A DNA stretch of 64,000 nt from Alphaproteobacteria bacterium. GTDB lineage: Bacteria; Pseudomonadota; Alphaproteobacteria; CALKHQ01. Positions 21,801 through 39,914 of this stretch are shown piece by piece. The DNA is taken from the NCBI GenBank assembly GCA_965227515.1, contig CBDDFZ010000001.1, forward strand, positions 3,744,001 to 3,808,000. The letters run 5' to 3'. Numbering within the stretch: position 1 is the stretch's first letter; each line of letters opens with the position of its first letter. The position numbers and the translations under genes were made by a program. Under the pieces are notes generated by a model. That model saw only the letters and a list, made by a program, of their open reading frames with translations. It ran no database searches and was not told the origin of the DNA.

Positions 21801-21822
21801 GCCGCTGCGCATCCGTTCCGGC

Positions 21823-23704: not shown

Positions 23705-24008
23705 GCTCCTGCACCGCCTCGAAACCCTCGAACTGCGGATGACCCAGATAGAGCCCCCGATTCTGGCCGGCATCGGCATGAGCGCGCCGGAACGCTTCCG
23801 ACTTCGTCCAATCCTCGAAGGCGGACTGCGAGGCCCATTCGGTGTGCGAGGCGTAGAGCGTGTGGTCGTCGTTTTCCGGCCCCTTCAGCAGGTGAAAGGA
23901 CTTGAAGCCGGGCACCGAACGCAACTGGCTGTCGCGGGTTTTCCACACCTGCTCGAAATCGGCCTCGCTGCCGCGCCGCACCTGAAACCTGTTCATTGCG
24001 ATAAACAT
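23697..24008 (-). CDS. Antibiotic biosynthesis monooxygenase family, IsdG/HmuQ-like heme-degrading enzyme
   Basis: MFIAMNRF, VPGF, WTKSEAFRRAH (N/W/H triad of IsdG-type enzymes); adjacent to hmu genes. Confidence 0.85.
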   Translation of the reverse strand: MFIAMNRFQVRRGSEADFEQVWKTRDSQLRSVPGFKSFHLLKGPENDDHTLYASHTEWASQSAFEDWTKSEAFRRAHADAGQNRGLYLGHPQFEGFEAVQELR

Positions 24009-24313: not shown

Positions 24314-24538
24314 CTAGAGCAGCAACAATGCCAACACGGCATAAGTGATAACCGTGCCGATCAGAACGATCCCGACGACCCTGGCACCGGACCGGCGATC
24401 CCGCCGATCATCGCGGCGTCTCGCAATTCGGCGTTGGCGCGCGCCCGCGACTTTTCGACGAGATTTGCCGGGTGGCGGCTCCGCCAGACCGATCATTGGA
24501 CGAGCCGGAGCCACGCTCGCCGGGTCGATGTGTTCCAT
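24314..24538 (-). CDS. Small membrane protein, last gene of the alginate-like operon
   Basis: 74 aa; starts 8 bp after the upstream stop; Arg-rich stretch, then a C-terminal TM helix (VVGIVLIGTVITYAVLALLLL). Confidence 0.55.
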   Translation of the reverse strand: MEHIDPASVAPARPMIGLAEPPPGKSRRKVAGARQRRIARRRDDRRDRRSGARVVGIVLIGTVITYAVLALLLL

Positions 24539-24546
24539 GTTGCCTG

Positions 24547-26955
24547 CTACTGCGATTCACTGCATGCGGCCGGGAGCCGCCCCAACAGGCTATCGAGCAG
24601 GTCCTGCGCTTCGGCGCGTTGAGCATCGGTTAGCGCTGACGACACGTTGTTGAGCCTGTCGCGCGCACCGATGATGCCCGCATCGGCCGCAATCGCGTAG
24701 TAGGCATAGGCGCTTTGAAAATCCGGCCGTGCCGCGGCCAGGCCCGAGAGATAGATGCCGCCAAGCCGTTCGGCCGCCAGATACCAGCCCGCATCAAGGG
24801 CTTCGCGGTAAAGCGTCACGGCGGAATCGCCACCGTCGCGGCTGGCTTCCTCGGCCTGGATCAGCGCGAGGCGCCCGGACTCGCAGACGTTGCTCGTGCC
24901 CGCCAGATTGAGTTCGAGCTGCGGCTGGATGATGGCCGCCAGGCTGGCATCCGCCGCCGCAAGGTCGCGCAGTTCCTCGAACGCGCCGCGAACGCCTTGA
25001 CTGTGGGCTTCCAGCAGGTAAGGCACGGCCTCGGCCGACCGGCGCAACTCGATCAACACCACGCCGTACCAGTACGCCGCCACCGCGTCGCCCCCGCTCA
25101 CCGTTGGCTGCGTCAGACTGAGCGCGGTCTGCAATCTCGCTGGGTCGTCCGAGAACCGCGCAACCGTCCGCAACAGGCGGAAGGCGGACCGGCCATCGCC
25201 GGCACGCACCGCCTGCTCGTAGTAGGTCATTGCCTCGGCTGTCGACGGGCCCGACGCGTTGTCCATGGCCAGGTCACCGAGTATGCGGAACGCCCGCGCC
25301 TCGCCCTGGTTGGACGCCTGAACCAGCAGGTTGCGGGCCCGCGCCATGTTGTCGGCGCCGCCCTGGCCGATCAGCAGCGTGGCCAGTTCCAGCCGGGCTT
25401 CCGAATTCCCGGTCGCAGCCGCCCTGTCCAGAACGCCAATCAGGGTGGCTGTGTCGGCCAGGTTCGGGCGCTCCTCGACCAGTTTCGATAACCGCACTGC
25501 CGCCGACGCATTGCCGGCCTGCGCGGCGCGCAGATAGCTGTTCGCCGCAGCCTCGTAGTCGCCGCCTTCCTCCTGGATCCGGCCAAGGTCATACAGAGCA
25601 CCAGCGTCGCCCGATTGCGCCGCCTGTTGTAGCGCGGCGACAGACTGCGGGCCGGCCCCGCCCCCAACCAGGCGCGCGAGCCGGTCGGCGGCGTCGCCAC
25701 GGCCGCCGTTCGCGGCAAGCTGGTAGTAGCGGATCGCCTGCTGAACGTTGGCGATGTCCCTGCCGCCGGATTCCAGCACCCGGCCGACGCGGTAGTACAC
25801 TTCAGGGTCGCCAAGCAGGTCGGCCCAGGCGATGACGATGGCGAGTGCCGGCGCGCGGTTGCCGTCCGGGTCCGTCACGCCATCCTCGAACAGGTTGAGT
25901 ATTCGGCGCGGTGCGGCGTCACGGCCGGCGGCATACGCCGCTTCCAAGTATGCGTAAGCTTCGCCGCGACGGCCGTCGGGCCCGTCGGCAAGGATCGCCC
26001 CGGCGTCATACGCCAGGTCGGGCTGGCCGGCGTCGATAAGCTGCCGGTAGATGGCCAGCGCCTCGTCGATCCGCCCTGTTGTAGCATAGAGATCGGCCAG
26101 ATCCTCGCGCGCCTCCGACGAGCCGGCGGCGTTGGCCTGCATGAATGCGCTTTCGGCCGCCGCCGGATCGTAACCCGGCGCGCCCGGATCTGACGCTATC
26201 CTGCCGAGCACGACATGGCCGCGCGCGTCGCCCCGGTCGATTGCGTAGCCGGCGTATTCGATCGCCCTGGCGCGATTGGCATATGCCGACCCTGGCTCGC
26301 TGTACAACCGAGCCAGGTTGACTGAGGCGCTGGCGTTGCCGCGAACATGCGCCCGTTCCAGCAATTCCATCCCGCGCACACGGTCGACCCGACCATATTG
26401 CGGGTCGAGGTAGATAACGCCGAGGTCGACGAGCGCCGACGTATTGTTTTGCGATGCCAGCGCTTCAAGCAACTCGATCGCACGCGCAATGTCGCGCGGC
26501 CGCCCGCCACCACCGGTCAGTTCGAGCCGCGCGAGCTCCAACTGGGCGGAATCGGAACCGCGCAATGTCGAAAGCACCAGCAAGTCGCGCGTCCGCTCCG
26601 GCGCCAGGTCGACCTCGCCGCGCGCCGACAAGATCGCGAGCCTTTCGCTGGCCCGCGGCTCGCCACGTCGCTGCGCCTCTTCGTACAGCTCCACTGCCCG
26701 GGCGACATCCAACGGCACACCGTCGCCGGTTTCGTAGGCGCGGCCACGGTCGTAGAAGTCACGGGCCGTTTCCAGTCGGACGCCCTGGTCCTGCTGCGCC
26801 TGGGTGGGCGTGAAGCTCGGCCTGTTGCCGCCGACGCACCCCGCCAGCGCCAGCGCCAGCGCACAGTAACCGAGGCCCCTGCCCAGGGGACGGAGTCCTA
26901 TCGTGGAGAGTGGCCGGCTTCGGCGGGACCGCTCCAGTCTATCGATGTCAACCAT
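24547..26955 (-). CDS. Sel1/TPR-repeat lipoprotein (AlgK-like scaffold candidate), ~802 aa
   Basis: Start ATG 26955, 2 bp after upstream stop; lipobox LALAG-C; many Sel1 repeats (A..LG..Y...G...D...A...Y..AA..G). Confidence 0.8.
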   Translation of the reverse strand: MVDIDRLERSRRSRPLSTIGLRPLGRGLGYCALALALAGCVGGNRPSFTPTQAQQDQGVRLETARDFYDRGRAYETGDGVPLDVARAVELYEEAQRRGEPRASERLAILSARGEVDLAPERTRDLLVLSTLRGSDSAQLELARLELTGGGGRPRDIARAIELLEALASQNNTSALVDLGVIYLDPQYGRVDRVRGMELLERAHVRGNASASVNLARLYSEPGSAYANRARAIEYAGYAIDRGDARGHVVLGRIASDPGAPGYDPAAAESAFMQANAAGSSEAREDLADLYATTGRIDEALAIYRQLIDAGQPDLAYDAGAILADGPDGRRGEAYAYLEAAYAAGRDAAPRRILNLFEDGVTDPDGNRAPALAIVIAWADLLGDPEVYYRVGRVLESGGRDIANVQQAIRYYQLAANGGRGDAADRLARLVGGGAGPQSVAALQQAAQSGDAGALYDLGRIQEEGGDYEAAANSYLRAAQAGNASAAVRLSKLVEERPNLADTATLIGVLDRAAATGNSEARLELATLLIGQGGADNMARARNLLVQASNQGEARAFRILGDLAMDNASGPSTAEAMTYYEQAVRAGDGRSAFRLLRTVARFSDDPARLQTALSLTQPTVSGGDAVAAYWYGVVLIELRRSAEAVPYLLEAHSQGVRGAFEELRDLAAADASLAAIIQPQLELNLAGTSNVCESGRLALIQAEEASRDGGDSAVTLYREALDAGWYLAAERLGGIYLSGLAAARPDFQSAYAYYAIAADAGIIGARDRLNNVSSALTDAQRAEAQDLLDSLLGRLPAACSESQ

Positions 26956-26957
26956 GG

Positions 26958-29234
26958 TCAGCTCTGGCTTTCCTGAGACTGCAGCATGCGCCCCAGCTCG
27001 CTTCCCGCCTGGAAGAAACCGTTCTCGGAAGCCTGGCGCATCCAGTAGATGGCACGCTCCAAATCGGGCTCGCTGAGGAGCCCGCGCTCCAGCGCCACGG
27101 CAAGCTGGAACTGCGCCTCGCTGTCGCCGCTGTTGGCCGCACGCTCCAGCCACGAGAGCGCCGCGACATTGTCCGCGCCTTCCAGTTCGCCGAACGCGAT
27201 CAGGTTCGACATGTAGATCATCGCCGGCACATGGCCGGCCTCTGCCGCCATGAGAAGCCAGTCGTACGCCCGCTCGAAATCGGTGGGCACGACGCCGCCG
27301 GCGGTATACATCAGTCCCAGTTCGGTCGCCGCCGCGACATTGCCTGCCTCCGCACTGGCGGTGAAGTACTCCATCGCGAGGCGCTGATTGATCTCGGCCC
27401 CAATGCCAGTCGCGAAGGCCCGGCCCAGATAGTACTGCGCCTCGACATTGCCCGCCGCGAGCGCGGCCTTGTAGAGTTCGACGGCCTGGTAGGGATCGAA
27501 CTGGCCGGCGGAGCCGTCCCAGTAGGTTCCGGCCAACTCGACCATGGCGTCGGTGTTGCCGAGGTCCACCGCGCGCTCCAGCCACTCCAAGCCTTCCTCG
27601 GTGGTGCCGGCATCGCCCATCTCACCTCGCACGATTGCACGTCCAAGGTCGAGCATATGGTCGCTGGACCCGTTCTCGGCCACGCGCCGGGCCTCGGTCA
27701 GCCACTCCGCGGCATGCTCATCGGACTTGTCGACGCCGATGCCCTGGGCGTAGTGCCGCGCCACCTCGACGATGCCGCGGAAATAGCCGCGTTCCGCGCT
27801 CTGGCGGTAATAAGCGAACGACTGTTCCGGGTCCGGTTCGGCATAGCCGTCATCGCCATGGGCCACGCCGAGGTAGTAAAGCGCGCGCCCGTCGCCCTGC
27901 GCACCGGCGTCGCGCAACAGGCGCAGGCCGTTCTCGGGATCGTAGAGCGGCGAACCCGGATCGGCCTCCAGCTTGATCATGGCCAGTCCGATCGTCGCCG
28001 ACGTCGTCAATGGACGCCCGTTCTCGAGGGACTCCACCACCGTGACGGCGCGGTCGATCCGCCCGGTCGCGACCAGAACCTCGATCAGGTCGATGCTTGC
28101 GCTGACATCGCCCAGGAACGCCGCACGTTGCAGCAGCCGCTGCTCGGCGACCACGTCACCACTGCTGCCGGCCAGCCGTGCGGCAAGGCGGAAGGCGCGC
28201 GCCTCGTTGACCGCCATCGCGCGGTCGAGCCATTGCTGCGCAACGGTCGAGGGCACGTCCATCGCCGACGCCTCGTCGACCAGCAGGGTGCGGGCCAGGA
28301 TGATCGCCGCATTAGCCGAACCTTCGCTGGCGGCCTGGATCAAGAGGTCGCGGGCACGGGTCGGATCGGGTGCACCGTATGTCGGGTCCAGGTACATCTC
28401 GGCGCGACCGACCATGGCGTTCGCGTCGCCCCTGGCCACCGCATAATCAAGCCAGTTCAGCGCCTGGGCGACATCCTGCTCGATGGCAGGATGGCTGAGA
28501 TATGCCTGGGCCAGGTCCACCGCCTCGCCGGTGTCACCCTGCAGCGCATTCTGGCGCAGCATGGCGATGCCAAGCCTTGCCATGCCCTCCGCCTCGGCAA
28601 GGTCCTCCTCGGAGCCGCGGACGATCAACTGGCGCGACAGCAGCAGGGCTGCACGCCCCTCGCCTGCATTCAGGGCTCGGCGCAGCCACGGTTCGCTGGC
28701 CGCCATGTCGGCGGGCGCGCCAACGACGCCTTCGGCCAACGCCCGGCCGAGCTGCAGCGCCGCCGGGCCGTAGCCCGAGGAGGCGGCCTGCTCCAGCATC
28801 GTGCGCGCGGTCGCCAGGTCTTCCGCCGACTCCCGGGTTTCGATCAGCAGCAACGCCAGCTCGTATCTCGAGCGGTTGAGCAGCCGGCGCGCATCGCGCC
28901 CCGGCTCACCGTCCAGCACCTCCACTGCGCGCCTGAGGACGGCAATCGCCTGCTCGGCGTCGGACTGCCACAGGATGTGAGGGCTGGGATGGTTGCTGAG
29001 GTACCGGCCCAACTCGAACAGAACCGCGCCGTTATCGCTGGCACTCATTTCGGTCACCAGCGTGTCGATCAGTTCCTGATCGTTGGACAGCACTGCCGTG
29101 CGCAGGAGATCCAGCTGGTCGACCGTGCCTTCGGCCTCGACCGCGTCGACCGACTGCGCGTTCACGGGCAGCGGGTTCACGACGGCCAGTCCGGCGCTCA
29201 GAATGGCTGCACTCGCCAGAAGCATTTTTCTCAT
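26958..29234 (-). CDS. Periplasmic Sel1-repeat protein, ~758 aa
   Basis: Signal peptide MRKMLLASAAILSAGLAV..VNA-Q after an AAGGGGG RBS; canonical Sel1 repeats (EAQYYLGRAFATGIG, EAQFQLAVALERG). Confidence 0.85.
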   Translation of the reverse strand: MRKMLLASAAILSAGLAVVNPLPVNAQSVDAVEAEGTVDQLDLLRTAVLSNDQELIDTLVTEMSASDNGAVLFELGRYLSNHPSPHILWQSDAEQAIAVLRRAVEVLDGEPGRDARRLLNRSRYELALLLIETRESAEDLATARTMLEQAASSGYGPAALQLGRALAEGVVGAPADMAASEPWLRRALNAGEGRAALLLSRQLIVRGSEEDLAEAEGMARLGIAMLRQNALQGDTGEAVDLAQAYLSHPAIEQDVAQALNWLDYAVARGDANAMVGRAEMYLDPTYGAPDPTRARDLLIQAASEGSANAAIILARTLLVDEASAMDVPSTVAQQWLDRAMAVNEARAFRLAARLAGSSGDVVAEQRLLQRAAFLGDVSASIDLIEVLVATGRIDRAVTVVESLENGRPLTTSATIGLAMIKLEADPGSPLYDPENGLRLLRDAGAQGDGRALYYLGVAHGDDGYAEPDPEQSFAYYRQSAERGYFRGIVEVARHYAQGIGVDKSDEHAAEWLTEARRVAENGSSDHMLDLGRAIVRGEMGDAGTTEEGLEWLERAVDLGNTDAMVELAGTYWDGSAGQFDPYQAVELYKAALAAGNVEAQYYLGRAFATGIGAEINQRLAMEYFTASAEAGNVAAATELGLMYTAGGVVPTDFERAYDWLLMAAEAGHVPAMIYMSNLIAFGELEGADNVAALSWLERAANSGDSEAQFQLAVALERGLLSEPDLERAIYWMRQASENGFFQAGSELGRMLQSQESQS

Positions 29235-29269
29235 GATTATCCCCCCTTCTTGAGGTTGTCGGTCATGCG

Positions 29270-30430
29270 CTATTGCAGGTCGGCGCCGTTCGGTTCCCAC
29301 CAGAAGCATGTCGCGTTGCCGCCCGCGTAGTCGTCGATCAGCGGGCGCACAGGCGCCAGTTCCAGGTCGCGAAAGGCTTCGATGGTGGAAATGTCGTAGG
29401 CTGCCAGAACAGGCTGATGGCCCAGCTCGGTCCATGCCATGTAGTGCCGCTGGTGGCCGCGGGTTTCCATGAACCCCACGTCCTGCAGCCGGTAGTCCGC
29501 CGTGGGCCCCGGAATGTAGTTCTGGGCGGCGTAGGGGAAGATCAGCGCCGGCTCGACCAGCACAGTTCCCAGATAGTCCAGAATGGACTGGAAGCCCGCC
29601 TTTCCATCGCCGGACGTCAGGTCGATGCCATTCAGGGCCGCGACCTGAGCCATCAGGGCAAGCTCACCTGTCGACATGTTCGTGTACCACATCGCGCGGG
29701 CGCCACGGCGCGCCTCCAGCGGCAGGCTGCCGTCCGCACGCGCCTGGCCCAGCGCGATGTTGAAGCGCTCCACGCCCTTGTCGATGAGTTCGGCGTCGCC
29801 CACGATCGAACCCCACGTCATAAGGGCGGCGTCGGCGAGGTAGCGATGGTTGTTGTGGTCCACGTCCCCGTCGAAGGTGGCATCCAGCCGGCGCACGATG
29901 CCGTCGATCCACCGCTCTACCAGCTCGCGCTGGTCCGGCGTCATGTCGTCGGCGGCGATGCGGAACGCCACCATGGTGGGCAGCATCACGCGCTTGGTCG
30001 CATAGAACGGGTCGTAGTGTGTCGGCGTTTCGCCCAGCGCATCGGCCTCGGCCCAGGCCACCAGACCGTCGATCAGACTCTCGGAGGCGACCGCGTCGCC
30101 CGCCAGGCTGCGGCCGGCCAGCACCATGATCGACCAGGAAAACGCCTCGGCCCGGTTGTCGGTGCCGTACTCGTCGGTCGGGCCGAGGCCGGCGATGGGG
30201 TCGGCGATCGGCAGGACCTCTTCTGCCTCCGCAGCCATGCACGCCGCGAGCGCAGGCGCGTATTCCGGCTGTTGCAACAGACCCCGCCGCACATCGACGT
30301 CGAACACCGCCGGCCCGTAGGCCCCATCGGCGGCGTGTGCGGAGACCGACGCCAGCATCGCACCGCCGGCCAGCAGGCACCGCAGGCCCAGCCGCGCGGG
30401 CCGGACGGTTGAGACTTTCAACGGGTTCAT
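29270..30430 (-). CDS. algL: Periplasmic alginate lyase, PL5 (AlgL-like)
   Basis: Signal peptide ..SAHA-A; NNHRY (PL5 NNHSYW variant); DGSLPLEARRGARAMWY catalytic Tyr region; ATGA overlap with algG. Confidence 0.8.
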   Translation of the reverse strand: MNPLKVSTVRPARLGLRCLLAGGAMLASVSAHAADGAYGPAVFDVDVRRGLLQQPEYAPALAACMAAEAEEVLPIADPIAGLGPTDEYGTDNRAEAFSWSIMVLAGRSLAGDAVASESLIDGLVAWAEADALGETPTHYDPFYATKRVMLPTMVAFRIAADDMTPDQRELVERWIDGIVRRLDATFDGDVDHNNHRYLADAALMTWGSIVGDAELIDKGVERFNIALGQARADGSLPLEARRGARAMWYTNMSTGELALMAQVAALNGIDLTSGDGKAGFQSILDYLGTVLVEPALIFPYAAQNYIPGPTADYRLQDVGFMETRGHQRHYMAWTELGHQPVLAAYDISTIEAFRDLELAPVRPLIDDYAGGNATCFWWEPNGADLQ

Positions 30431-33400: not shown

Positions 33401-34182
33401 CGCTCCATGTCCGCCTGCGACAGCGCTTCGGCGGACAGTTCGGCCAGGCGCTCGTTGTCGAATTCGGGGGCTTCGTATGCGCCCACGGCGGGCAACTCCG
33501 GCACCTCGCCCCACCGATGCAATGCCGAGATCGCCCACGCCCGCATGATGGTGGCTTCGTACGCGGGCGCATTGATGCCCTGGAGCAGCGCAAAGACCTC
33601 CTCGGGCGCCAGCATGTCGCTGAGCGCCGCGGCGTCGGCAATCCGTGCGCGAAGGGACGCCCCCTCCTCCGACGGATCGACCAGGACTGCGACGTCGACC
33701 GCCGCGCGAAACAGATCGCCGGCGGCCCAACTGTCGCCCTGGGCATTGAGGCACTGTGCGACGCCTATCAACGCTTCCAGGCGATAGGCCGCCGAGGCGG
33801 TGTCGTCCTGTACCGCACGGTCCGAAACGGCCTGCAGCCAGTCACCGTCCTCCGGCGTCACCAGCGCGGACCGCTCATCCCCCATGTTGCAGGCCGTCGC
33901 GGCAAAGCCGATGGTCCAGCGCAGCACATCGTCGTCGAGGGGAGCGTCGGCGCCGTTGGGCAGCGCGCCCGCGATCAGACCACGATACGCATCGGCACGT
34001 TCCGCATCGGACCCGTCCAGCAGAACGGCCATCGTTTCCGGCGAAACAGGTTCGGCCCCCTGGACGGCCCCGGCCGCGCCAATGGCGGCGGCCAGCATGA
34101 CCGGCAGGGCGAGCCGGTGCGCGGCGCCTCGGCCCGGGCCACGCCGCTCTGCTATTGCGCTCATTGAGTTGCTGAAGGTCAC
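30427..34182 (-). CDS. algG: Mannuronan C5-epimerase AlgG domain fused to ~700-aa N-terminal alpha-helical repeat region
   Basis: C-terminal part has FRPFLIGWSGSE, LGYNNRKSWGVS, FYGFYSY, YGPDPHDYS (DPHD catalytic motif at 31201-31212), KKHGLIVSREV and beta-helix repeats; GTG start with GGAGG RBS; signal peptide. Confidence 0.85.
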   Translation of the reverse strand: MTFSNSMSAIAERRGPGRGAAHRLALPVMLAAAIGAAGAVQGAEPVSPETMAVLLDGSDAERADAYRGLIAGALPNGADAPLDDDVLRWTIGFAATACNMGDERSALVTPEDGDWLQAVSDRAVQDDTASAAYRLEALIGVAQCLNAQGDSWAAGDLFRAAVDVAVLVDPSEEGASLRARIADAAALSDMLAPEEVFALLQGINAPAYEATIMRAWAISALHRWGEVPELPAVGAYEAPEFDNERLAELSAEALSQADMERAFQYAAAIEVSLTDLRTPLLESVSRLSTDMGDHATARLVARAIADSSLRSDWLQYSAERALSADLPADAEYAARLMEPTRNTINVWLDVAAAYRDAEYPEALIEALDRAEAIARGLLDEDDGSALMLVTGRAAQLDQTDRAAEILTEISEAEGRPRAIADLAKRLAELDDVSQALEWALLIDDPAIDAEIRTRALGPIAKRMAEMDRLDDARALIDLRPDLTGTYLDQALRTIAVGLARSGDVAAATSYVERIVDEEERARAMMEIGRVQGGAEFEELLEERTDAVIDIASTDQVQFAIEPILDVHVDRGDMAALEALSARLQGSGAMGGAVDQVKAAIARVLADRGDYGEAIAATEEIDDDGLRDRARGDVALVMAEGDDLPGAARLARSIRDYEARLVTFRIIAEMQAHRLDAYQLVPEIYASRPAGLSAQVIAAPAGNGAAPGDFVQERAGMAVFDVADAGMADWPELSGLSHRVADALTLVPADVRERVVAGSEEGLTVRLPITGTPYNEKYIEIVGVVDYAQRQGEMLPHLIYIEHGTYTISMLREALIGLGRADYLTVDGGVFTLHRPIVVGPRATLVISGADAKELRLSTDEYAYLVVGGRMVVADTVITSWGIEESAPSELVSGENDFNFRPFLIGWSGSEIYATRTNFRALGYNNRKSWGVSVSSGPQGFTFEGETVMESPKIVLVENLFDRLFYGFYSYNTHDIDIVGNEYRNNVIYGPDPHDYSESVLMALNTAYGTLKKHGLIVSREVSGLFVGNISFDNHGAGIMLDRLSNRSIIYGNTAWGNGNDGIAVYETACAIVANNQLSHNSLTGLRIRNSIDIAVFDNVMTQNDKEGVIIDTDPLLDHTWRDLEQDPFWTYASATLIGNHISGNVGAVRMEDVYAATFVDNRVAANGNSLLEGDFLPLLNLLVRQYPFESSSFMLADLCQQPLERHHGCPFREAGIFHGDGQDDWAFGGPAPTCEGTYSVSNIGVTWEPGS

Positions 34183-35360
34183 GAGAAGTTACCTCCGACC
34201 GATGAATGGGATTGCAATATCGCCTCCACGCCCTGGTTCTCGGGCGCAGGGTCCTGGGCCGGTCTCGCAGCCGCCGGTGGCGGCGCTGCCGACCGCCCGT
34301 CGCGCTCTTTCAGCAACGCTTGGACCTGCTTCACGTTCTCCGACTGGTGCCGGTCGCAGATCAGCAGCGCGCCATTGGCTTCGACGACCACGATGTCGCT
34401 GACGCCGACCACGGCCACGGTCATGTCGCTGCGGACAAGATTGTTTCGGGCCTCGACGAACAGGCTGTCCGCCCCGCCATGATTGCCCTCGCCGGACTTT
34501 TCGCTGATCTCCCAGATCGAGCCCCAGGACCCGATGTCGGACCAATCGGCCGAGAGCGGCACCACCACCGCGTTGCGCGTCGGCTCCATCACCGCATAGT
34601 CGATGGAGATGGCCGGGCACTCCTCGAACCTGGCCGACGGGTAGAACCTGCCGGAGTGATAGCGGCCGGTCTTGAAGCTTCGATGCGTGTTGTCGAACAC
34701 GTCCTCGGCGTACTGGCCGAGCTCGTTCAGATAGGTATCGGCGGCAAACAGGAACATGCCGCTGTTCCAGTAGTACTGACCGGACTCCACATAGGCCGTC
34801 GCGTTCTCCAGCGCGGGCTTCTCGCGGAAGCCCGCCACCCGATACATCTTGGAGTAGCCGTCAACCTGCACGCCGCGGCGAATGTAGCCGTAGCCCGTGT
34901 GCGGCGTGGTCGGCTCTATACCGAACGTCACCAGGCTGCCTTCGGCGGCCGCGTGCGCCGCATCGCGCACCGCGATGATCAGCGGCTCCAGCTCGCCGAT
35001 ATGATGGTCGGACGGCAACACCCACATCAGGCTGTTGCCCCGGTCCCGCCGCAGCCAGCGCGCGGCAAGTGCGATGCCGGGAGCGGTATTGCGGCCTGTG
35101 GGCTCCGCGATGATGCAAGCCGGCTCGATGTTGACTTCCGCCAGCTGTTCGGCGACCCGCGCCACATGTTCGGCATTGGTGACCAGTACCGGCGCGCTGC
35201 CGGTCACCGCCATCGCGCGCAGCACCGTCATCTGAAGCAGCGAGTGCTTGCTGTGCAGCCGGTGAAACTGCTTGGGCATGGCGTCGGTGGACAGGGGCCA
35301 CAGGCGCTTGCCTCCCCCCCCGCATAGGATCACCGGACAGATATTGTTCAATGGCAGCAT
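34179..35360 (-). CDS. Mannose-1-phosphate guanylyltransferase (AlgA/ManC GMP domain only)
   Basis: ILCGGGGKRLWPLS..MPKQF, EPTGRNTAP, PSDH, TGYGYI, WNSGMF, ISIDYAVME, WSDIGSW; ends without the C-terminal RPWG PMI cupin; alternative start 35414. Confidence 0.9.
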   Translation of the reverse strand: MLPLNNICPVILCGGGGKRLWPLSTDAMPKQFHRLHSKHSLLQMTVLRAMAVTGSAPVLVTNAEHVARVAEQLAEVNIEPACIIAEPTGRNTAPGIALAARWLRRDRGNSLMWVLPSDHHIGELEPLIIAVRDAAHAAAEGSLVTFGIEPTTPHTGYGYIRRGVQVDGYSKMYRVAGFREKPALENATAYVESGQYYWNSGMFLFAADTYLNELGQYAEDVFDNTHRSFKTGRYHSGRFYPSARFEECPAISIDYAVMEPTRNAVVVPLSADWSDIGSWGSIWEISEKSGEGNHGGADSLFVEARNNLVRSDMTVAVVGVSDIVVVEANGALLICDRHQSENVKQVQALLKERDGRSAAPPPAAARPAQDPAPENQGVEAILQSHSSVGGNFS

Positions 35361-35433
35361 CAGGTTTCTCGCAAGTGCTCGGTCATAGGTACTGTCGGGC
35401 AAGCGCGCCGGCACGTCGCCGGCACGGCATCCG

Positions 35434-36552
35434 CTATGACTGGTCCCCGCCGGCGAAGATCTGGCCGAGCCAACTCTCGCCGAACGTATCGATGGTTATG
35501 GCGACCGGCCGGCCGATCCATTCCAGCGGAATGTCCTCGGCGGTGCGCACTGTCACCTCGGCCGACACCACGGCCTTCGGGTCCAGGATCGGCTGGCCGA
35601 TTTCGGAAAGCTGGCGACGCATGTCGACCTTGGCGACCAAGCCCCACATGTTCTGGCCCGTGGCCGGGAATGTGAGCAGCACCTCCATCCCCTCCTGCAG
35701 TCGCAGCGCGCTGTCGTAGGGCACCAGGGCCGAGACCCGGGTTGCGGCGTCCAGCGGCGCCAGCAGGAACAGATTGGCGTCCACCCCGACCTGGCTGTCA
35801 TCGGTGACAAGCACATCGACGATACGGCAGGCGCAGGGGCTTTCCACGAAGTATGCCGAACCGCCCGGGGTGGTGACGGTGGCCAGCAGGTCGCCCGGCG
35901 CGACCGTTTCCTCGCCGGCGGCCTGGCTGAAGACCACGCGCCCGCCTTGGGGAGCCGCGATCTGAATGAGGTCGGACGTCACCACCGCGCTGTGCGCGGA
36001 GATGAGAAACGAGCGTTCGTAGATGCTCATCGCCACCAGCGCCAGGATGGCCAGCGCCGCGACCGAGAGCACCACCGGCATCAGGCGGCGGCTGCGCTTC
36101 TGGCGCGCGCTTTCCCGGGCGGTGGGTGCCGGCACGTCGAGCTTGGCCCCGGAATCCGCCCTCTGCATGAGGTTGAGCACGTCGTTGACGTGAACGATCT
36201 CGCCAGCCACGTGGGCGCGGACCATGTACTGCAGGATTGAGGCCTGGCTGGCCGACTGGTCCACCAGCCGGCATCCCATGCGGCCGGTCTCGGGCGACCG
36301 GTAGCAGACCTCGAACCTGACCTTGACGTCCATGTCGAAGTCGTCGAAAGGCAGGATCAGCCGGCCCGAATAACTGTTGCCGACCGACAGTGTCAGGCTC
36401 TCGGCCTGCACCGCGAAACCGCCGACAGACCAGTCGAGGATGTGATACCTCTGGCCGCCGATATCTATCGAGAGCGGAATCTGCAGCCGCGCGAACTGAC
36501 GCTGGCGCTCAGACTCATGAACAATGGCGGGTGTTTTCGTTACAGCATTCAC
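35434..36552 (-). CDS. alg44: Alginate co-polymerase Alg44 (PilZ c-di-GMP domain + TM + membrane-fusion-like domain)
   Basis: VHESERQRQFARLQIP (RxxxR), DWSVGG (DxSxxG), single TM LMPVVLSVAALAILALVAMSIY, periplasmic SPCAC. Confidence 0.88.
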   Translation of the reverse strand: MNAVTKTPAIVHESERQRQFARLQIPLSIDIGGQRYHILDWSVGGFAVQAESLTLSVGNSYSGRLILPFDDFDMDVKVRFEVCYRSPETGRMGCRLVDQSASQASILQYMVRAHVAGEIVHVNDVLNLMQRADSGAKLDVPAPTARESARQKRSRRLMPVVLSVAALAILALVAMSIYERSFLISAHSAVVTSDLIQIAAPQGGRVVFSQAAGEETVAPGDLLATVTTPGGSAYFVESPCACRIVDVLVTDDSQVGVDANLFLLAPLDAATRVSALVPYDSALRLQEGMEVLLTFPATGQNMWGLVAKVDMRRQLSEIGQPILDPKAVVSAEVTVRTAEDIPLEWIGRPVAITIDTFGESWLGQIFAGGDQS

Positions 36553-36555
36553 GAT

Positions 36556-38085
36556 TCATGATCCCAGCTTGGCGGTCCAGAACCCGAGATCGGGCAGTTC
36601 CAGGACGTTGATGAAAATTGCGACGGCGATGATGAGGCAGGCGAACGACATGGCCTGCAGGGCGACGGCCGACTGGCGCAGCCGACGTTCCCGGCTGCTC
36701 GACAGGCCTCGATTGAGCGTCGTTTTCTGTCGGGTCCATTTCTGGCGATCGAGCTGGAAGATGACGCTCGACTTCACGAGAGAGCCGACGATCTGGTTGT
36801 AGTAGAGGAGGAAGGGATAGGTGGCCGATACGTGCCGGCGCGCCGTCAGCAAGCTGAGGGTGAGCACGTATCGGGTCAGCCCGATCCAGCAGAGGTAATA
36901 GATCCAGGCGTACGGTGTGATGAACAACGTGGCCAGGATCGCGCCGATTGGCCCGACCATGGTGGTCCAGATCGACACGCGCTGGTCGACGATGCACCAC
37001 CAGGTGAACAGCCCCATCCGCCGCGGGCCCAGCGCAATGGCGCGCGCGTTGGTGCGCAGCATGTTGCCGAACCAGCGCCGCATCAGCATGACCGAAGCCT
37101 TGGTGAACTTCGGGTGCGGCGGCGATTCCACCGTCAGCACCTGGGCGTCCGGGATGTAGAGCATCTCGTAGCCGTTCTTCAGCATCCAGTACCACGACGA
37201 TTTGTCGTCGCCGGTCAGGAACCGGAAGCGCCCCAGGCGCCAGTGATCGATCCAGTCCAGCTCGACCTGGGAGATGAACGACGGATCGGTCAGCAGCTCG
37301 CCGCGGAACATCGACATGCGGCCGGTCAGCGTGAGCACGCGCCTGGAGAGCCCCACCGACGACATGGCGATGTGGCGCTGCGCGAACCGCATCGAGTACC
37401 AGTTGCGGAATATTCCAGCGCCCTCGACCGAGCAGAACTCGTCGGTCGTCAACGCGCCGACGTTCTTCCGCAACCGGAAGAACGGCACGCACTTCGACAG
37501 CAGACCGGGCATCAGCAGGCTGTCGCCATCGATGACGGCTGCAATGAAGCCGGCCGGCGGATTGTCGCGCGAGATCGCGCGGAAGGCGCAGGCCAGGCCG
37601 TCGCGCTTGCCTGAGCCCTTGATGCGAACCACCATCAGCTTGACGTGCTCCGGTGGATTGCAGGACTGGAAGAGCTGCTTGATGACGCGCTCGTCAGACA
37701 TTTCGACGATGGAGGCGACGATCGTGGTCGGCGCCCCGTATCGCGCGGCCTCCTCGATCACCGAGCGGTAGACGGCCAGCGTCGTGTCGGTGGAGATCCT
37801 GAAGCTGGTGACCAGTAGGTAGAGATGACTGGGCCGGGCGGCATCCCCCAACGCGTCGGCCTGGCGGCGCCAGCGCGGGAACACCACAAGCCGGTAGATC
37901 AGCGAGCGCACGAAGTGCACGCCGCCCCAGCCATAGCGCCAAACGCCGATGGCCCCGATGATGAACAGAAACTGCGCGGCATCGGGGTCCAGCAGCACTG
38001 GCGGAAGCTGCAGAATCGCAAGCGCCAGGACTGCCACGTAGAGAACGTGGCCCAGCAATGACGGTCGGCTACCTGCCTGTTCCAT
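36556..38085 (-). CDS. alg8: Mannuronan synthase Alg8 (GT2)
   Basis: LLVTSFRI, GKRDGLA, VIDGDS, LTTDEFC, LTLTGRMSMFR, FLTGDDKSSW, LMRRWFGN (LxxRW); N- and C-terminal TMs. Confidence 0.92.
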   Translation of the reverse strand: MEQAGSRPSLLGHVLYVAVLALAILQLPPVLLDPDAAQFLFIIGAIGVWRYGWGGVHFVRSLIYRLVVFPRWRRQADALGDAARPSHLYLLVTSFRISTDTTLAVYRSVIEEAARYGAPTTIVASIVEMSDERVIKQLFQSCNPPEHVKLMVVRIKGSGKRDGLACAFRAISRDNPPAGFIAAVIDGDSLLMPGLLSKCVPFFRLRKNVGALTTDEFCSVEGAGIFRNWYSMRFAQRHIAMSSVGLSRRVLTLTGRMSMFRGELLTDPSFISQVELDWIDHWRLGRFRFLTGDDKSSWYWMLKNGYEMLYIPDAQVLTVESPPHPKFTKASVMLMRRWFGNMLRTNARAIALGPRRMGLFTWWCIVDQRVSIWTTMVGPIGAILATLFITPYAWIYYLCWIGLTRYVLTLSLLTARRHVSATYPFLLYYNQIVGSLVKSSVIFQLDRQKWTRQKTTLNRGLSSSRERRLRQSAVALQAMSFACLIIAVAIFINVLELPDLGFWTAKLGS

Positions 38086-38130
38086 GTTTCGCCTCGCCCT
38101 GATGCGAACCTTCCTCGTCGCCTCGTCGCC

Positions 38131-39414
38131 CTACCAGCAAATCCCCTGGTAACGGTCGGAGCTCATCATCTGCGGGTCGATCCGCACCAGGTCGACCAAG
38201 TCGACGTTCTCCTCGGTGCGCGACAGCGCCGAGCGGAACGCCGGGGCGCCGTTGCCGATGATGATCAGTTCGGCGTGGTCGTAGATGTCCTCGATCTGAT
38301 CGGCCATGTAGCCGGCCAGCCCGTTCAAGCGCGTCTTGTCGGTCGAGTAGTACTCGTCGTAGATCTTGAGGTGGTAGCCGAGGCCGATCAGACGCTCCGC
38401 CAGTGTGACCAGCGGGCTTTCGCGAAGGTCGTCGGTGCCCGACTTGAAGGTCAGGCCCAGAAGGCCGACCCGATTGCGGCCGGAATCCTTGACCAGGTCG
38501 ACCGCGCGCTCGATCTGATGATCGTTCGCGCTCAAGAGCGCGTCGAAGACCGGGGTCTGCACGCCGTTGCGCCGCCCGAGCGCCACCAGAGCCCGCAGAT
38601 CCTTGGGCAGGCACGATCCGCCAAAGGCGAAACCGGGCTTCAGATACGCCGGCGAGATGTTCAGCCGATCGTCCTTGCACAGGATGTCCATGACCTGGTG
38701 GCTGTCGATGCCGACCGATCGACAGAGGTTCCCCATCTCGTTGGCGAACGTCACCTTGGTCGCATGCCAGGCATTGTTGGCGTACTTGACCGCCTCCGCG
38801 GTCTGGATGTCGGTCGTGACCTCCAGTGCCGAGAGTCGGCTGTTCAGCTCGTGCAGACGGTTGCGGGTGATCGCATCGCGCACTCCAAACAACGAGATCG
38901 CGGGATCGTAGAAATCCTTGATCGCCGTGCTCTCGCGGAGGAATTCGGGATAAAGCGCGATGCCAAACCCCTCGCCCGCAACCATGCCGGCTTCCTGCTC
39001 CAGCGCCGGGATGATCGTGCCGGCCATCGACCCCGGCAGCATCGTGCTACGGATCACGACCGAGTAGAACCGATTGAGCCCCTTCACCGCCGCGCCGATC
39101 TGGCGGGCGACCGTAGCGACATACTTCAGATCTACGTCGCCCTGCCCATCGCTGGGTGTGCCGACGCAGACAAAACACAGCTCAGTTGCCTTGATCGCCT
39201 CATCCGACGACATCGTTGCCGAAAGACGGCCGGCACGCACATTGTCGGCGACCAGTTCATCAAGACCGGCTTCGCCAATGGGTGCCCACCCGTCGTTGAT
39301 CGCATCGACCTTTCGCGAGTCGATGTCGACGAGCACCACCGTGTGGCCCTGATCGGCCAGGCAGGCCGCGCTGACCGTTCCCACATAACCGGCACCGAAT
39401 ATGGCTACCTGCAT
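38131..39414 (-). CDS. algD: GDP-mannose 6-dehydrogenase AlgD
   Basis: IFGAGYVG, CVGTPS, PEFLRESTAIKD, NAWHATKVTFANE, PGFAFGGSCLPKD, TDDLRESP, C-terminal QGICW typical of AlgD. Confidence 0.92.
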   Translation of the reverse strand: MQVAIFGAGYVGTVSAACLADQGHTVVLVDIDSRKVDAINDGWAPIGEAGLDELVADNVRAGRLSATMSSDEAIKATELCFVCVGTPSDGQGDVDLKYVATVARQIGAAVKGLNRFYSVVIRSTMLPGSMAGTIIPALEQEAGMVAGEGFGIALYPEFLRESTAIKDFYDPAISLFGVRDAITRNRLHELNSRLSALEVTTDIQTAEAVKYANNAWHATKVTFANEMGNLCRSVGIDSHQVMDILCKDDRLNISPAYLKPGFAFGGSCLPKDLRALVALGRRNGVQTPVFDALLSANDHQIERAVDLVKDSGRNRVGLLGLTFKSGTDDLRESPLVTLAERLIGLGYHLKIYDEYYSTDKTRLNGLAGYMADQIEDIYDHAELIIIGNGAPAFRSALSRTEENVDLVDLVRIDPQMMSSDRYQGICW

Positions 39415-39686
39415 ATTATCCCCCTTGAAGGATTCGTGACGTTCGGTTTGTCGACCCGGTGCGGCTGCCGAGCGCCGCTACGACGCTCTCCGACCAGATC
39501 GCTTCTGCCTGCAAAGCCAGTTCGGGCTTTCCGTTAAGCTGTTGGCCCGGCGGTTCCGTTTGCCCCGCTGCGCACCGACATCACACGCATTACGATAGTT
39601 TCATATCGAGCGGCCGGCGTGCCTGCACAGCGCTGGAATCTACTCTCACGGCCGTTGTGGAAGCCTGAGACTGGCGTATTTGTTCG

Positions 39687-39914
39687 CACGTGCACAAAAA
39701 AGCGGCGACACGTGCACGGGCCTGAACACCAGAGAAACAGAGGGTTTGAGTGCCTCCTGGCGTGTTAAGGAAAGGACATATTGCAAATTTTTTAACTTGA
39801 TCGGCGATCACACCGATTTGATCAACTTGATAACATAGGTTTATTTGGCTTTGACAAAGAGGCCCATCGCCCCACATACAAACATATGTTTGAGTAGTGT
39901 TACTCAGTTGAGTA
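39687..39914. promoter_or_regulatory. Divergent algD / regulator control region with repeats and palindromes
   Basis: CACGTGCAC direct repeats (39687, 39709); TTGACA at 39851; perfect palindrome CAAACATATGTTTG (39879-39892); TGAGTA-N4-TACTCA-N2-TGAGTA (39891-39914); AT-rich. Confidence 0.5.

What the first reader, a model, noticed from the sequence alone, without database searches (positions are those of the whole stretch)
24314..39414. Alginate-type synthase-dependent exopolysaccharide operon in an alphaproteobacterium
Seen: a closely spaced minus-strand operon, with several overlapping or near-abutting junctions, containing AlgD (GSCLPKD, terminal GICW), Alg8 (LxxRW, TGDDK), Alg44 (ESERQRQFAR/DWSVGG PilZ), a GDP-mannose pyrophosphorylase, AlgG (DPHD), a PL5 lyase (NNHRY), two Sel1 proteins and a small TM ORF. 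The neighbouring rRNA genes look alphaproteobacterial. Established: experimentally characterised bacterial alginate synthesis comes from Pseudomonas and Azotobacter, with order algD-8-44-K-E-G-X-L-I-J-F-A. Inference: this is a distinct, rearranged (D-8-44-A'-G-L-Sel1-Sel1) c-di-GMP-controlled alginate machine in a lineage where alginate production is not textbook knowledge.
Basis: partly seen in the sequence, partly recalled or inferred. Interest (0 to 1): 0.92.

Follow-up and report, generated by a model that had tools for sequence, protein, structure and literature searches.

The report
Porin-less alginate operon in alphaproteobacterium
An obscure alphaproteobacterium carries a compact, rearranged set of genes for making the slime polymer alginate but lacks the usual outer-membrane pore, so alginate-type machinery reaches beyond Pseudomonas and Azotobacter, though chemical proof is still missing.

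Summary
Window 24547-39414 (minus strand) is a tight eight-gene operon with junctions of 45, 3, 19, -4, -4, 35 and 2 nt: algD, alg8, alg44, a GMP without the PMI domain, a 1251-aa TPR-like::AlgG fusion, a PL5 AlgL-like lyase, a periplasmic Sel1 protein and a Sel1 lipoprotein. The ninth, small TM ORF is doubtful.

AlgD, Alg8, Alg44, AlgG and AlgL are reciprocal best hits of a canonical algD-8-44-K-E-G-X-L-I-J-F-A operon. In the tree, Alg8 sits in the same subgroup as canonical Alg8. The 16S is about 90% identical to Azospirillum, so the host is alphaproteobacterial.

No AlgE porin, AlgX, AlgJ or AlgF was found in the 99.7%-complete genome; positive controls worked. All 4 species of the GTDB family carry the cluster. 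One relative adds AlgI/AlgJ/AlgF and Azotobacter-type secreted epimerases.

Best reading: a c-di-GMP-gated, non-acetylating alginate-type system whose route across the outer membrane is unknown.

Novelty is moderate. Alg8 homologues occur in 19 of 401 sampled alphaproteobacterial species, and "atypical alginate operons" were noted in 2020. This architecture was not found in print. There is no chemistry yet.

The parts
38131..39414 (-). algD, GDP-mannose 6-dehydrogenase (427 aa)
   Evidence: PDB 1mfz 'GDP-mannose 6-dehydrogenase' scores 403 bits over the full length, against 231 bits for the best UDP-glucose dehydrogenase. It is 44% identical to the AlgD of the canonical operon L054 and is its reciprocal best hit.
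36556..38085 (-). alg8, GT2 mannuronan synthase homologue (509 aa)
   Evidence: Pfam Glyco_tranf_2_3, 132.8 bits. It is 54% identical to canonical Alg8 and is the only hit of that protein in the genome. Motifs are conserved.
35434..36552 (-). alg44, PilZ - TM - membrane-fusion-like co-polymerase (372 aa)
   Evidence: PilZ and HlyD_3 match. PDB 4rt0 'Alg44' matches at E 5.9e-13 with RxxxR and DxSxxG aligned. It is the reciprocal best hit of canonical Alg44 at 27% identity.
34179..35414 (-). GDP-mannose pyrophosphorylase without the PMI domain (411 aa, start uncertain)
   Evidence: NTP_transferase plus the ManC beta-helix match. TIGR01479 scores 386.8 bits over profile positions 1-349 of 467 only. 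The canonical AlgA covers positions 1-467.
30427..34182 (-). TPR-like solenoid (about residues 45-675) :: linker :: AlgG-type mannuronan C5-epimerase beta-helix (about residues 800-1146), 1251 aa with a signal peptide
   Evidence: NF038177 AlgG scores 264 bits over residues 784-1145. PDB 4nk6 matches at E 8.3e-59 with DPHD aligned. The AF2 model of residues 1-801 is all-alpha (pLDDT 74.4). Foldseek returns only TPR/PPR-type solenoids. The same fusion is seen in 6 other loci and in 22 further representative proteins.
29270..30430 (-). AlgL-like PL5 alginate lyase (386 aa from the ATG that overlaps the upstream stop)
   Evidence: Pfam Alginate_lyase, 86.7 bits. PDB PL5 lyases 7fhu, 1hv6 and 4ozv match. 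It is the best hit of canonical AlgL.
26958..29234 (-). Sel1A, periplasmic Sel1-repeat protein (758 aa, Sec signal)
   Evidence: Sel1, 146 bits. AlgK model NF038194 scores 45.4 bits against a cut-off of 700. PDB 7ula_B 'AlgK' matches at E 2.6e-8.
24547..26955 (-). Sel1B, Sel1-repeat lipoprotein (802 aa, lipobox LALAGC)
   Evidence: Sel1, 56 bits. The lipobox is visible in the sequence and is conserved in relatives. The AF2 model is all-alpha over residues 64-791 with no strands (pLDDT 83.7). Foldseek places Sel1-repeat proteins at the top.
24314..24538 (-). Small ORF with a C-terminal TM segment (74 aa); doubtful gene
   Evidence: The ORF is. Its GC3 is 0.67. There is no Pfam hit. Nothing comparable follows Sel1B in L066 or L067.
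39415..40164 (.). 750-bp divergent intergenic region (presumed promoters and leader)
   Evidence: GC is lower here, 0.60. No gene passed the GC3 filter. The consensus scans and the repeat search were uninformative.
40165..42522 (+). Divergent PAS - (weak HisKA) - REC - LuxR/GerE HTH regulator (785 aa)
   Evidence: Pfam hits are. A homologue sits divergently beside algD in L001 and L002 but not in L056.
42907..45180 (-). RTX-repeat PL7 alginate lyase (757 aa), probably secreted
   Evidence: Alginate_lyase2 scores 186 bits and HemolysinCabind 169 bits. PDB PL7 lyases match at about 1e-30, and AlgE6 R-modules 2ml3/2ml1 also match. It is the only PL7 in the genome. A homologue is linked to algD-8-44 in L005.

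Best explanation
The cluster encodes a synthase-dependent system for an alginate-type (poly-beta-1,4-mannuronate, partly C5-epimerised) exopolysaccharide.

Inferred pathway:
1. The GMP makes GDP-mannose and AlgD oxidises it to GDP-mannuronate.
2. Alg8 polymerises it at the inner membrane. It works together with Alg44, whose cytoplasmic PilZ domain makes polymerisation depend on c-di-GMP and whose periplasmic membrane-fusion-like domain reaches into the periplasm.
3. In the periplasm the chain is handled by three long helical-repeat proteins: the TPR-like arm fused to the AlgG epimerase, Sel1A, and the Sel1B lipoprotein. These take the place of AlgK and AlgX.
4. The AlgG domain converts some M residues to G. 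The PL5 lyase clears stray polymer.
5. There is no acetylation module in this genome, so the polymer should be non-acetylated.
6. Passage through the outer membrane does not use an AlgE-family porin. The component is unknown and is not encoded in the operon.
7. A divergent PAS/REC/LuxR regulator probably controls transcription, and a neighbouring RTX-PL7 lyase probably trims or releases the polymer outside the cell.

Shown here: gene identities, orthology to canonical alg genes, motif conservation, operon structure, conservation across the family, and absence of AlgE/AlgX/AlgJ/AlgF homologues.

Inferred, not shown: the product's chemistry, c-di-GMP dependence, the scaffold role of the repeat proteins, the export route, and the roles of the regulator and the PL7 lyase.
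For: - Five proteins (AlgD, Alg8, Alg44, AlgG domain, AlgL) are reciprocal best hits of the genes of a canonical operon, L054. L054 was validated by AlgK at 792 bits (cut-off 700), AlgG at 963 (700), AlgL at 656 (429), a full GMP_PMI, and AlgE PF13372 at 350 bits in the AlgE position.
- AlgD scores 403 bits against GDP-mannose dehydrogenase and 231 against UDP-glucose dehydrogenase.
- The Alg44 PilZ aligns to the solved Alg44 PilZ with both c-di-GMP motifs.
- AlgG's DPHD motif is conserved and nearly invariant in 24 fusion proteins.
- In the careful ML tree the family's Alg8 clade (support 100/99) lies in a 22-row group (81/85) that also holds the canonical clade (99/96). The Hyphomonas and Pelagibius types lie outside.
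- The operon junctions are tight and all ORFs are intact.
- All 4 of 4 genomes of the GTDB family hold Alg8. The same gene order is seen in L001, L002 and L056.
- The relative G006 adds alginate-specific genes beside its cluster: an ALGX-domain protein at 267.8 bits and an MBOAT, AlgF at 86-88 bits, and two AlgE-type secreted epimerases (PDB 2pyg, 165 bits).
- An RTX-PL7 alginate lyase lies 3.5 kb from algD.
Against: - There is no chemical, genetic or expression evidence.
- No AlgE-family porin exists in the genome: PF13372 finds none and tblastn with canonical AlgE finds no hit. No beta-barrel is encoded in the operon. Completion of export is therefore unexplained.
- The AlgG domain (264 bits against 700), the AlgL-like lyase (at most 64 bits against 366-743) and the Sel1 proteins (34-45 bits against 700) are all far below NCBIfam equivalog cut-offs, so substrate specificity could differ.
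- Alg44 is only 27% identical to the canonical protein.
- No PF01050 PMI domain is found in the genome, so the source of mannose-6-phosphate is not identified.
- L002 shows no AlgL between the fusion gene and Sel1A.
Confidence: 0.8

Rival explanations
1. The cluster makes a related but different polyuronide. This could be pure polymannuronate that is never epimerised, or a mannuronate-containing polymer with other linkages, so 'alginate' would be a misnomer.
For: The AlgG, AlgL and Sel1 proteins score far below the equivalog cut-offs. The architecture differs strongly from the canonical operon. More distant Alg8-like synthases of unknown product exist.
Against: AlgD is clearly a GDP-mannose dehydrogenase. 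Alg8 lies in the same subgroup as canonical Alg8. DPHD is conserved. The PL5 and PL7 families both act on alginate. A relative carries AlgF, AlgJ-like and AlgE-type epimerase genes beside the same cluster.
Confidence: 0.1
2. The cluster is a cryptic or crippled remnant. Without a porin the polymer cannot leave the periplasm, where the lyase degrades it, or the operon is silent.
For: No AlgE, AlgX, AlgJ or AlgF homologue was found.
Against: All eight genes are intact with translationally coupled junctions. The cluster is kept in 4 of 4 species of the family at 68-75% Alg8 identity. None of these 4 has an AlgE-family hit. Of 15 other alphaproteobacterial genomes that hold an Alg8-like synthase, 8 have no AlgE-family hit either. 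This points to a working porin-less design rather than decay.
Confidence: 0.07
3. The locus serves alginate uptake and degradation (a utilisation locus), not synthesis.
For: Two alginate lyase genes (PL5 and RTX-PL7) lie in 16 kb.
Against: A synthase, a co-polymerase, a GDP-mannuronate pathway and an epimerase have no role in catabolism. No transporter or oligoalginate-lyase genes were seen in the cluster.
Confidence: 0.02

Closest known systems
Canonical alginate operon algD-8-44-K-E-G-X-L-I-J-F-A of Pseudomonas/Azotobacter (names recalled; represented here by the unnamed locus L054)
   Same: AlgD, Alg8, Alg44 (PilZ-TM-MFP), the AlgG catalytic domain with DPHD, a PL5 lyase and a GMP are present. 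The order algD-alg8-alg44 at the head of the operon is the same, and a TPR/Sel1 lipoprotein is present.
   Different: There is no AlgE porin, AlgX, AlgJ or AlgF, and AlgI-like genes occur only at unlinked housekeeping loci. AlgG is fused to a TPR-like arm of about 630 aa. Two Sel1 proteins of about 760-800 aa stand where the 465-aa AlgK ORF stands in L054. The GMP lacks PMI and sits mid-operon. The regulator is different. The host is an alphaproteobacterium.
'Atypical alginate operons' of environmental/deep-sea bacteria (Bundalovic-Torma et al. 2020, PMC7112194; passages read)
   Same: They are described as rearranged and as having lost algKE or parts of algGXLIJF. This matches the loss pattern seen here.
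   Different: The text I could read names no alphaproteobacterium, no TPR::AlgG fusion and no Sel1 pair. The species list is in the S5 Fig and S3 Table, which I could not open because supplements are closed.
TPR-porin export proteins of other synthase-dependent systems (BcsC, PelB, PgaA; recalled, described generally in PMC7112194)
   Same: Long periplasmic helical-repeat scaffolds are coupled to a synthase gated by c-di-GMP.
   Different: In those proteins the TPR is fused to a beta-barrel. Here none of the three repeat proteins has any beta-barrel.
Azotobacter-type secreted RTX alginate enzymes (AlgE epimerases: PDB 2pyg, 2ml3; the AlyA3-type PL7 lyase is recalled)
   Same: The neighbouring PL7 lyase carries RTX repeats that match AlgE6 R-modules. 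The relative G006 has two A-module+RTX epimerases beside its cluster.
   Different: The window's own genome has no AlgE-type A-module (tblastn). The lyase has RTX blocks on both sides of the catalytic domain.

Membership tests
Alginate (alg) synthase-dependent biosynthesis system | GDP-mannose 6-dehydrogenase AlgD | tested here: met
   403 bits over the full length to PDB 1mfz, against 231 bits for the best UDP-glucose dehydrogenase. Reciprocal best hit of canonical AlgD.
Alginate (alg) synthase-dependent biosynthesis system | Alg8-type GT2 synthase orthologous to canonical Alg8 | tested here: met
   54% identity and sole reciprocal hit. Same tree subgroup as the canonical clade. Motifs invariant. 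No curated Alg8 model exists in NCBIfam; even the canonical Alg8 hits nothing.
Alginate (alg) synthase-dependent biosynthesis system | Alg44: PilZ with RxxxR and DxSxxG, a TM segment and a periplasmic MFP-like domain | tested here: met
   PilZ and HlyD_3 match. It aligns to the solved Alg44 PilZ at E 5.9e-13 with both motifs. Actual c-di-GMP binding was not tested.
Alginate (alg) synthase-dependent biosynthesis system | Periplasmic AlgG C5-epimerase with the DPHD motif | tested here: met
   PDB 4nk6 matches at E 8.3e-59 with DPHD aligned. The match is only a domain of a fusion protein, and NF038177 scores 264 bits, below the 700 cut-off.
Alginate (alg) synthase-dependent biosynthesis system | AlgL PL5 lyase | tested here: met
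   Pfam PF05426 scores 86.7 bits, above the 22.2 cut-off. NNH and the RA..Y region align to PL5 structures. NCBIfam equivalog scores are below their cut-offs.
Alginate (alg) synthase-dependent biosynthesis system | AlgK TPR outer-membrane lipoprotein | tested here: inconclusive
   Sel1B has a lipobox and an all-alpha Sel1 solenoid. Sel1A matches PDB 7ula_B AlgK at E 2.6e-8. However, NF038194 scores only 34-45 bits against a 700 cut-off, and canonical AlgK finds nothing by tblastn with the low-complexity filter on.
Alginate (alg) synthase-dependent biosynthesis system | AlgE outer-membrane porin (PF13372) | tested here: not met
   No PF13372 match in the 99.67%-complete genome or in G006-G008. 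tblastn with canonical AlgE finds no hit. Positive controls: G569 at 350 bits in the AlgE position and G002 at 279 bits.
Alginate (alg) synthase-dependent biosynthesis system | AlgX and the AlgI/AlgJ/AlgF acetylation module | tested here: not met
   No PF16822 match, no PF11182 match, and no tblastn hits for canonical AlgX, AlgJ or AlgF. Two AlgI-like MBOATs exist, but at unlinked housekeeping loci. These families were detected in the relative G006: AlgF by the same genome search and the ALGX domain by hmmscan of its proteins. The AlgX genome search itself had no ringing control.
Alginate (alg) synthase-dependent biosynthesis system | Bifunctional AlgA (PMI-GMP) | tested here: not met
   Only the GMP part is present: TIGR01479 positions 1-349 of 467, against 1-467 in the canonical AlgA. 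PF01050 is found nowhere in the genome, while the control rings in 10 of 14 genomes.
Alginate (alg) synthase-dependent biosynthesis system | The product is a mannuronate/guluronate polymer | not testable with these tools
   Needs EPS chemistry.
PL7 alginate lyase (neighbouring gene 42907-45180) | Alginate_lyase2 jelly-roll domain | tested here: met
   PF08787 scores 186 bits, above the 29.7 cut-off. PDB PL7 lyases match at E about 1e-30.
TPR-like::AlgG fusion family (defined here) | A helical-repeat N-terminal arm of about 650-780 aa, colinear with and fused to an AlgG domain | tested here: met
   The profile search finds 22 colinear proteins of 1166-1282 aa among the listed 150. Of 24 aligned members (own included), 23 hit NF038177. 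Six loci show the fusion.

The most novel reading that the evidence does not exclude
This lineage, and many other alphaproteobacteria with TPR-like::AlgG fusions, secretes alginate by a route that needs no AlgE-family porin. Three giant helical-repeat proteins (the TPR arm on AlgG, Sel1A and the Sel1B lipoprotein) would form a new kind of periplasm-spanning conduit. It would dock either to an unrelated outer-membrane channel (for instance a TolC-type factor engaged by Alg44's membrane-fusion domain) or to a so far unknown one. That would be a fifth design of outer-membrane export for synthase-dependent polysaccharides, and the first alginate producers outside the Pseudomonadaceae.
Probability: 0.3. 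Interest if true: 0.72.

Novelty: new variant of a known kind. Interest (0 to 1): 0.5.

Why it matters
Experimentally characterised bacterial alginate comes only from Pseudomonas and Azotobacter (recalled; the reviews listed treat only these).

The genome here is complete (2 contigs, 99.67%), so it may come from a culturable isolate. Its alginate-type cluster is compact, so whether alginate is made outside that family can be tested directly.

The cluster is also a natural minimal design. It has no acetylation, no AlgX and no AlgE. Each of these raises a mechanistic question:
- What replaces the porin?
- What does a 630-residue TPR arm do for the epimerase?
- Can two 800-residue Sel1 proteins substitute for AlgK and AlgX?

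A non-acetylated bacterial alginate from a non-pathogen could also interest polymer producers.

The limits: Alg8 homologues are already seen and auto-annotated in many alphaproteobacterial genomes, the general idea of atypical operons is in print, and nothing here is more than sequence inference.

Tried and rejected
- Alg8 has no sequence relative in the PDB. No NCBIfam model hits Alg8, even the canonical one. Orthology therefore had to rest on a canonical operon recognised by its content, reciprocal tblastn and a tree (quick, 82 careful).
- The search for homologous proteins on the N-terminal arm returned only 2 proteins, probably because of its word pre-filter on alanine-rich repeats. The exhaustive profile search replaced it. 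Most of that search's 2766 hits are multi-stretch matches to generic repeat proteins, so I counted only the single-stretch colinear ones in the listed 150.
- The ESM Atlas gave TPR clusters at 0.79, below its reliability line, so it is a lead only.
- The promoter/terminator scan found 0 promoter-like sites and 3 terminator-like sites against 9.0 expected. It is uninformative.
- The repeat search of the algD-regulator intergenic region found nothing convincing.
- Search for a porin. The unannotated proteins in related loci (L003:6578-8461, L059:16308-17765) look like hydrophobic multi-pass membrane proteins (my reading of the printed sequences) rather than barrels, and they are absent from this genome. 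The flanks of L001, L002 and L056 hold no barrel. AF2 shows Sel1B and the TPR arm as all-alpha. Sel1A was not modelled; it is judged helical because its Sel1/PDB matches cover residues 241-755.
- The two AlgI-like MBOAT genes lie near Lpt genes and LepA, and I could not link them to alginate.
- Expression: no RNA holder listed.
- Literature searches that found no paper describing an alphaproteobacterial alginate cluster: (listings and abstracts only) and passages of PMC11890756. The supplements of PMC7112194 (S5 Fig, S3 Table) may name such operons and could not be read.
- L001 and L002 show the same match coordinates or identities as two of the three family genomes. I therefore count three relatives, not five.

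Full report
**1. What is there**

The minus strand of window 24547-39414 carries eight intact genes. Their junctions are 45, 3, 19, -4, -4, 35 and 2 nt. GC3 is 0.77-0.88 for the seven genes that the GC3 filter lists; Sel1B is not in that list. In order of transcription:

| Gene | Coordinates | Length |
|---|---|---|
| algD | 38131-39414 | 427 aa |
| alg8 | 36556-38085 | 509 aa |
| alg44 | 35434-36552 | 372 aa |
| GDP-mannose pyrophosphorylase | 34179-35414 | 411 aa |
| TPR-like::AlgG fusion | 30427-34182 | 1251 aa |
| PL5 lyase | 29270-30430 | 386 aa |
| Sel1A, with a Sec signal | 26958-29234 | 758 aa |
| Sel1B, with a lipobox (LALAGC) | 24547-26955 | 802 aa |

A ninth ORF (24314-24538, 74 aa, C-terminal TM) follows after 8 nt. 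Its GC3 is only 0.67 and it has no family. Nothing comparable follows Sel1B in the two relatives where that region could be read. I regard it as doubtful.

Downstream lies an unrelated iron/haem uptake set: a TonB receptor, FecCD, an ABC ATPase and an ABM protein.

**2. Identity of the parts**

- AlgD matches the solved GDP-mannose 6-dehydrogenase 1mfz over its whole length (403 bits, E 1e-119). The best UDP-glucose dehydrogenase scores 231 bits.
- Alg44 has PilZ and HlyD_3 domains. Its PilZ aligns to the solved Alg44 PilZ (4rt0, E 5.9e-13), including RQRQFAR (RxxxR) and DWSVGG (DxSxxG).
- Residues 784-1146 of the 1251-aa protein match AlgG (NF038177, 264 bits; PDB 4nk6, E 8.3e-59, with DPHD aligned).
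- The lyase is PL5 (PF05426, 86.7 bits). NNH and the RA..Y region align to solved PL5 lyases.
- The GMP matches TIGR01479 only over positions 1-349 of 467, so it lacks the PMI cupin domain. PF01050 is found nowhere in the genome, although the control rings in 10 of 14 genomes.
- Alg8 has only the generic GT2 Pfam domain. It has no PDB relative and no NCBIfam model.

**3. Orthology with the textbook operon**

I needed a canonical reference and could not type one. I therefore searched 201 genomes of the order that holds the Pistricoccus genome of L007; 18 held an Alg8 homologue.

Locus L054 (G569) has the gene order AlgD, Alg8, Alg44, two further genes, AlgG, one further gene, AlgL, three further genes, AlgA. 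It also has:
- AlgK at 792 bits (cut-off 700), AlgG at 963 (700), AlgL at 656 (429) and a full-length GMP_PMI;
- PF13372 (AlgE) at 350 bits in the gene between AlgK and AlgG.

That is the canonical algD-8-44-K-E-G-X-L-I-J-F-A layout.

Identities of the window's proteins to L054's are: Alg8 54%, AlgD 44%, GMP 43%, AlgG 35%, AlgL 33% (over 103 aa), Alg44 27%.

In the reverse direction, the L054 proteins were searched against the whole genome of the window:
- AlgD, Alg8, Alg44, AlgG and AlgL find the window's genes as their best hits. For Alg8, Alg44, AlgG and AlgL these are the only hits.
- AlgK, AlgE, AlgX, AlgJ and AlgF find nothing at E <= 1e-3.
- AlgI finds two unlinked MBOAT genes (43-45% identity). 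These sit near Lpt genes and LepA.

A careful ML tree of 45 Alg8-type sequences (one short row and one duplicate were dropped) gives the following:
- The family of the window forms a clade (support 100/99).
- That clade lies inside a 22-row group (81/85), which also holds a 4-row alphaproteobacterial clade (97/92) and the 13-row clade with the canonical sequences (99/96).
- The Alg8-like proteins of Hyphomonas, Pelagibius/Kiloniellaceae/Pistricoccus and others lie outside.

**4. Host**

- The rRNA operon (16S, tRNA-Ile, tRNA-Ala, 23S, 5S, tRNA-Met) lies at 46340-52099.
- The 16S is at best 90.4% identical to Azospirillum chromid copies in the plasmid collection.
- The two closest loci bear the title 'Alphaproteobacteria bacterium'.
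- In the GTDB-based set the genome is the only species of its genus. Its family has three further species, and no 'same order' genome was returned among 40 relatives. It is thus an isolated, little-studied alphaproteobacterial lineage.

**5. What is missing, and the controls**

- PF13372 (AlgE) has no match in this 99.67%-complete genome or in the three family relatives. It is found in G569 (350 bits) and G002 (279 bits).
- PF16822 (AlgX/AlgJ) and PF11182 (AlgF) have no match here, but both families are found in the relative G006.
- AlphaFold models show the first 801 residues of the fusion protein as helical repeats from about residue 45 to 675, followed by a low-confidence linker (pLDDT 74.4). 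Sel1B is helical repeats from residue 64 to 791 with no strand at all (pLDDT 83.7). Foldseek returns only TPR/PPR/Sel1 solenoids for both.

No beta-barrel is therefore encoded in the operon, and the way through the outer membrane is open.

Of 15 other alphaproteobacterial genomes that hold an Alg8-like synthase, 8 have no PF13372 match either. The porin-less state is thus not peculiar to this genome.

**6. Conservation and relatives**

- Alg8 is present in 4 of 4 genomes of the family at 68-75% identity.
- The order algD, alg8, alg44, GMP, TPR::AlgG, (AlgL), Sel1A, Sel1B is shared by L056 (G006) and, as far as its sequence reaches, by L002. The contig of L001 ends inside its AlgL-like gene. 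L002 shows no AlgL between the fusion gene and Sel1A.
- The divergent regulator is shared by L001 and L002.
- G006 is richer. It has an MBOAT and an ALGX-domain gene divergent from algD. Downstream of Sel1B it has an AGE-family epimerase/isomerase gene, AlgF (86-88 bits), a third Sel1 protein, and two proteins with an AlgE-type A-module plus RTX repeats (2pyg, 165 bits). These alginate-specific neighbours in a sister genus are the strongest indirect support that the family's polymer is alginate.
- The window's genome has no A-module homologue.

**7. The TPR::AlgG fusion is a family**

- Long ORFs that contain the AlgG match (stop-to-stop 1201-1673 codons; about 1200-1280 aa from the likely start in five of them) occur in six other loci: L001, L002, L056, L059, L004 and L057. 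The start in L057 is uncertain.
- A profile of the N-terminal arm, searched against 1.84 billion representatives, gives 23 hits at E <= 1e-30. Within the 150 listed there are 22 single-stretch colinear proteins of 1166-1282 aa.
- Of 24 aligned members (own included), 23 hit the AlgG model, and DPHD is nearly invariant.

**8.

- 40165-42522 (+) encodes a PAS, weak HisKA, REC and LuxR-HTH protein.
- 42907-45180 (-) encodes a 757-aa protein with RTX repeats on both sides of a PL7 alginate-lyase domain (186 bits). Its C-terminal repeats match AlgE6 R-modules. It is the only PL7 in the genome.
- PL7 genes exist in all three relatives but are unlinked there. A homologue is linked to algD-8-44 in a Novosphingobium MAG (L005).

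**9. How common, and is it in print**

- Alg8 homologues (E <= 1e-40) occur in 19 of 401 sampled alphaproteobacterial species, own included.
- The protein search lists many alphaproteobacterial MAG proteins at 55-76% identity. Some are already named 'glycosyltransferase Alg8' or 'mannuronan synthase' by JGI.
- PMC7112194 (passages read) found 64 alginate operons in 1733 genomes, mostly Pseudomonas. It mentions atypical operons with rearrangements and loss of algKE or algGXLIJF. Its supplements could not be read.
- Seven further searches found no paper on an alphaproteobacterial alginate cluster. PMC11890756 (passages) links alg8/alg44 with PL5 only in Halomonas and Pseudomonas.

**10. Verdict**

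I rate it a new variant of a known kind. It is an alginate-type system with a fused TPR::AlgG, two giant Sel1 proteins, no acetylation module and no AlgE-family porin, in an isolated alphaproteobacterial family.

Confidence that it makes a mannuronate-based, alginate-type polymer is 0.8. Interest is 0.5. It is worth a bench test and raises a real question about export.

Noticed in passing
window 42907-45180 (-): A 757-aa protein with RTX repeat blocks on both sides of a PL7 alginate-lyase domain. It is the only PL7 in the genome. Its C-terminal repeats match Azotobacter AlgE6 R-modules.
   Followed up: partly
window 40165-42522 (+): A PAS / weak HisKA / REC / LuxR-HTH protein lies divergent from algD across a 750-bp gap. 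It is conserved in that position in L001 and L002 but is replaced by algI/algJ-like genes in L056.
   Followed up: partly
L056:16371-18969, L067:2990-4853, L071:2-11108 (genome G006): The sister-genus cluster carries an MBOAT and an ALGX-domain gene, an AGE-family epimerase/isomerase gene overlapping the Sel1B stop, AlgF, a third Sel1 protein, and two Azotobacter AlgE-type secreted epimerases (A-module plus many RTX repeats).
   Followed up: partly
G000:C1:2868560-2869960 and G000:C2:640691-642115: Two MBOAT genes are 43-45% identical to canonical AlgI. They sit next to Lpt genes and near LepA, each followed by genes with no Pfam family. They may acetylate another envelope polymer.
   Followed up: partly
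whole genome G000: No PF01050 (type II PMI cupin) domain is found anywhere, so the route to mannose-6-phosphate is not identified. G006 has an AGE-family gene in its alg operon that might supply it.
   Followed up: no
L003:6578-8461, L059:16308-17765, start of L057: Homologous hydrophobic membrane proteins of no known family sit beside alg clusters of other alphaproteobacteria. They are absent from this genome.
   Followed up: partly
window 18690-24008: A TonB-dependent receptor, a periplasmic binding protein, a FecCD permease, an ABC ATPase and an ABM-domain protein form a haem/iron uptake set directly downstream of the alg operon.
   Followed up: no
window 46340-52099 (-): A complete rRNA operon with a tRNA-Ile/tRNA-Ala spacer and a trailing tRNA-Met. 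The genome also holds very many RTX-repeat proteins (tblastn).
   Followed up: no
G322 (L058 and C1:339997-341286): One alphaproteobacterial genome has an Alg8 that branches with the canonical gammaproteobacterial clade and has an AlgE-family gene right next to its cluster. This is a likely transfer of a canonical-type operon.
   Followed up: no
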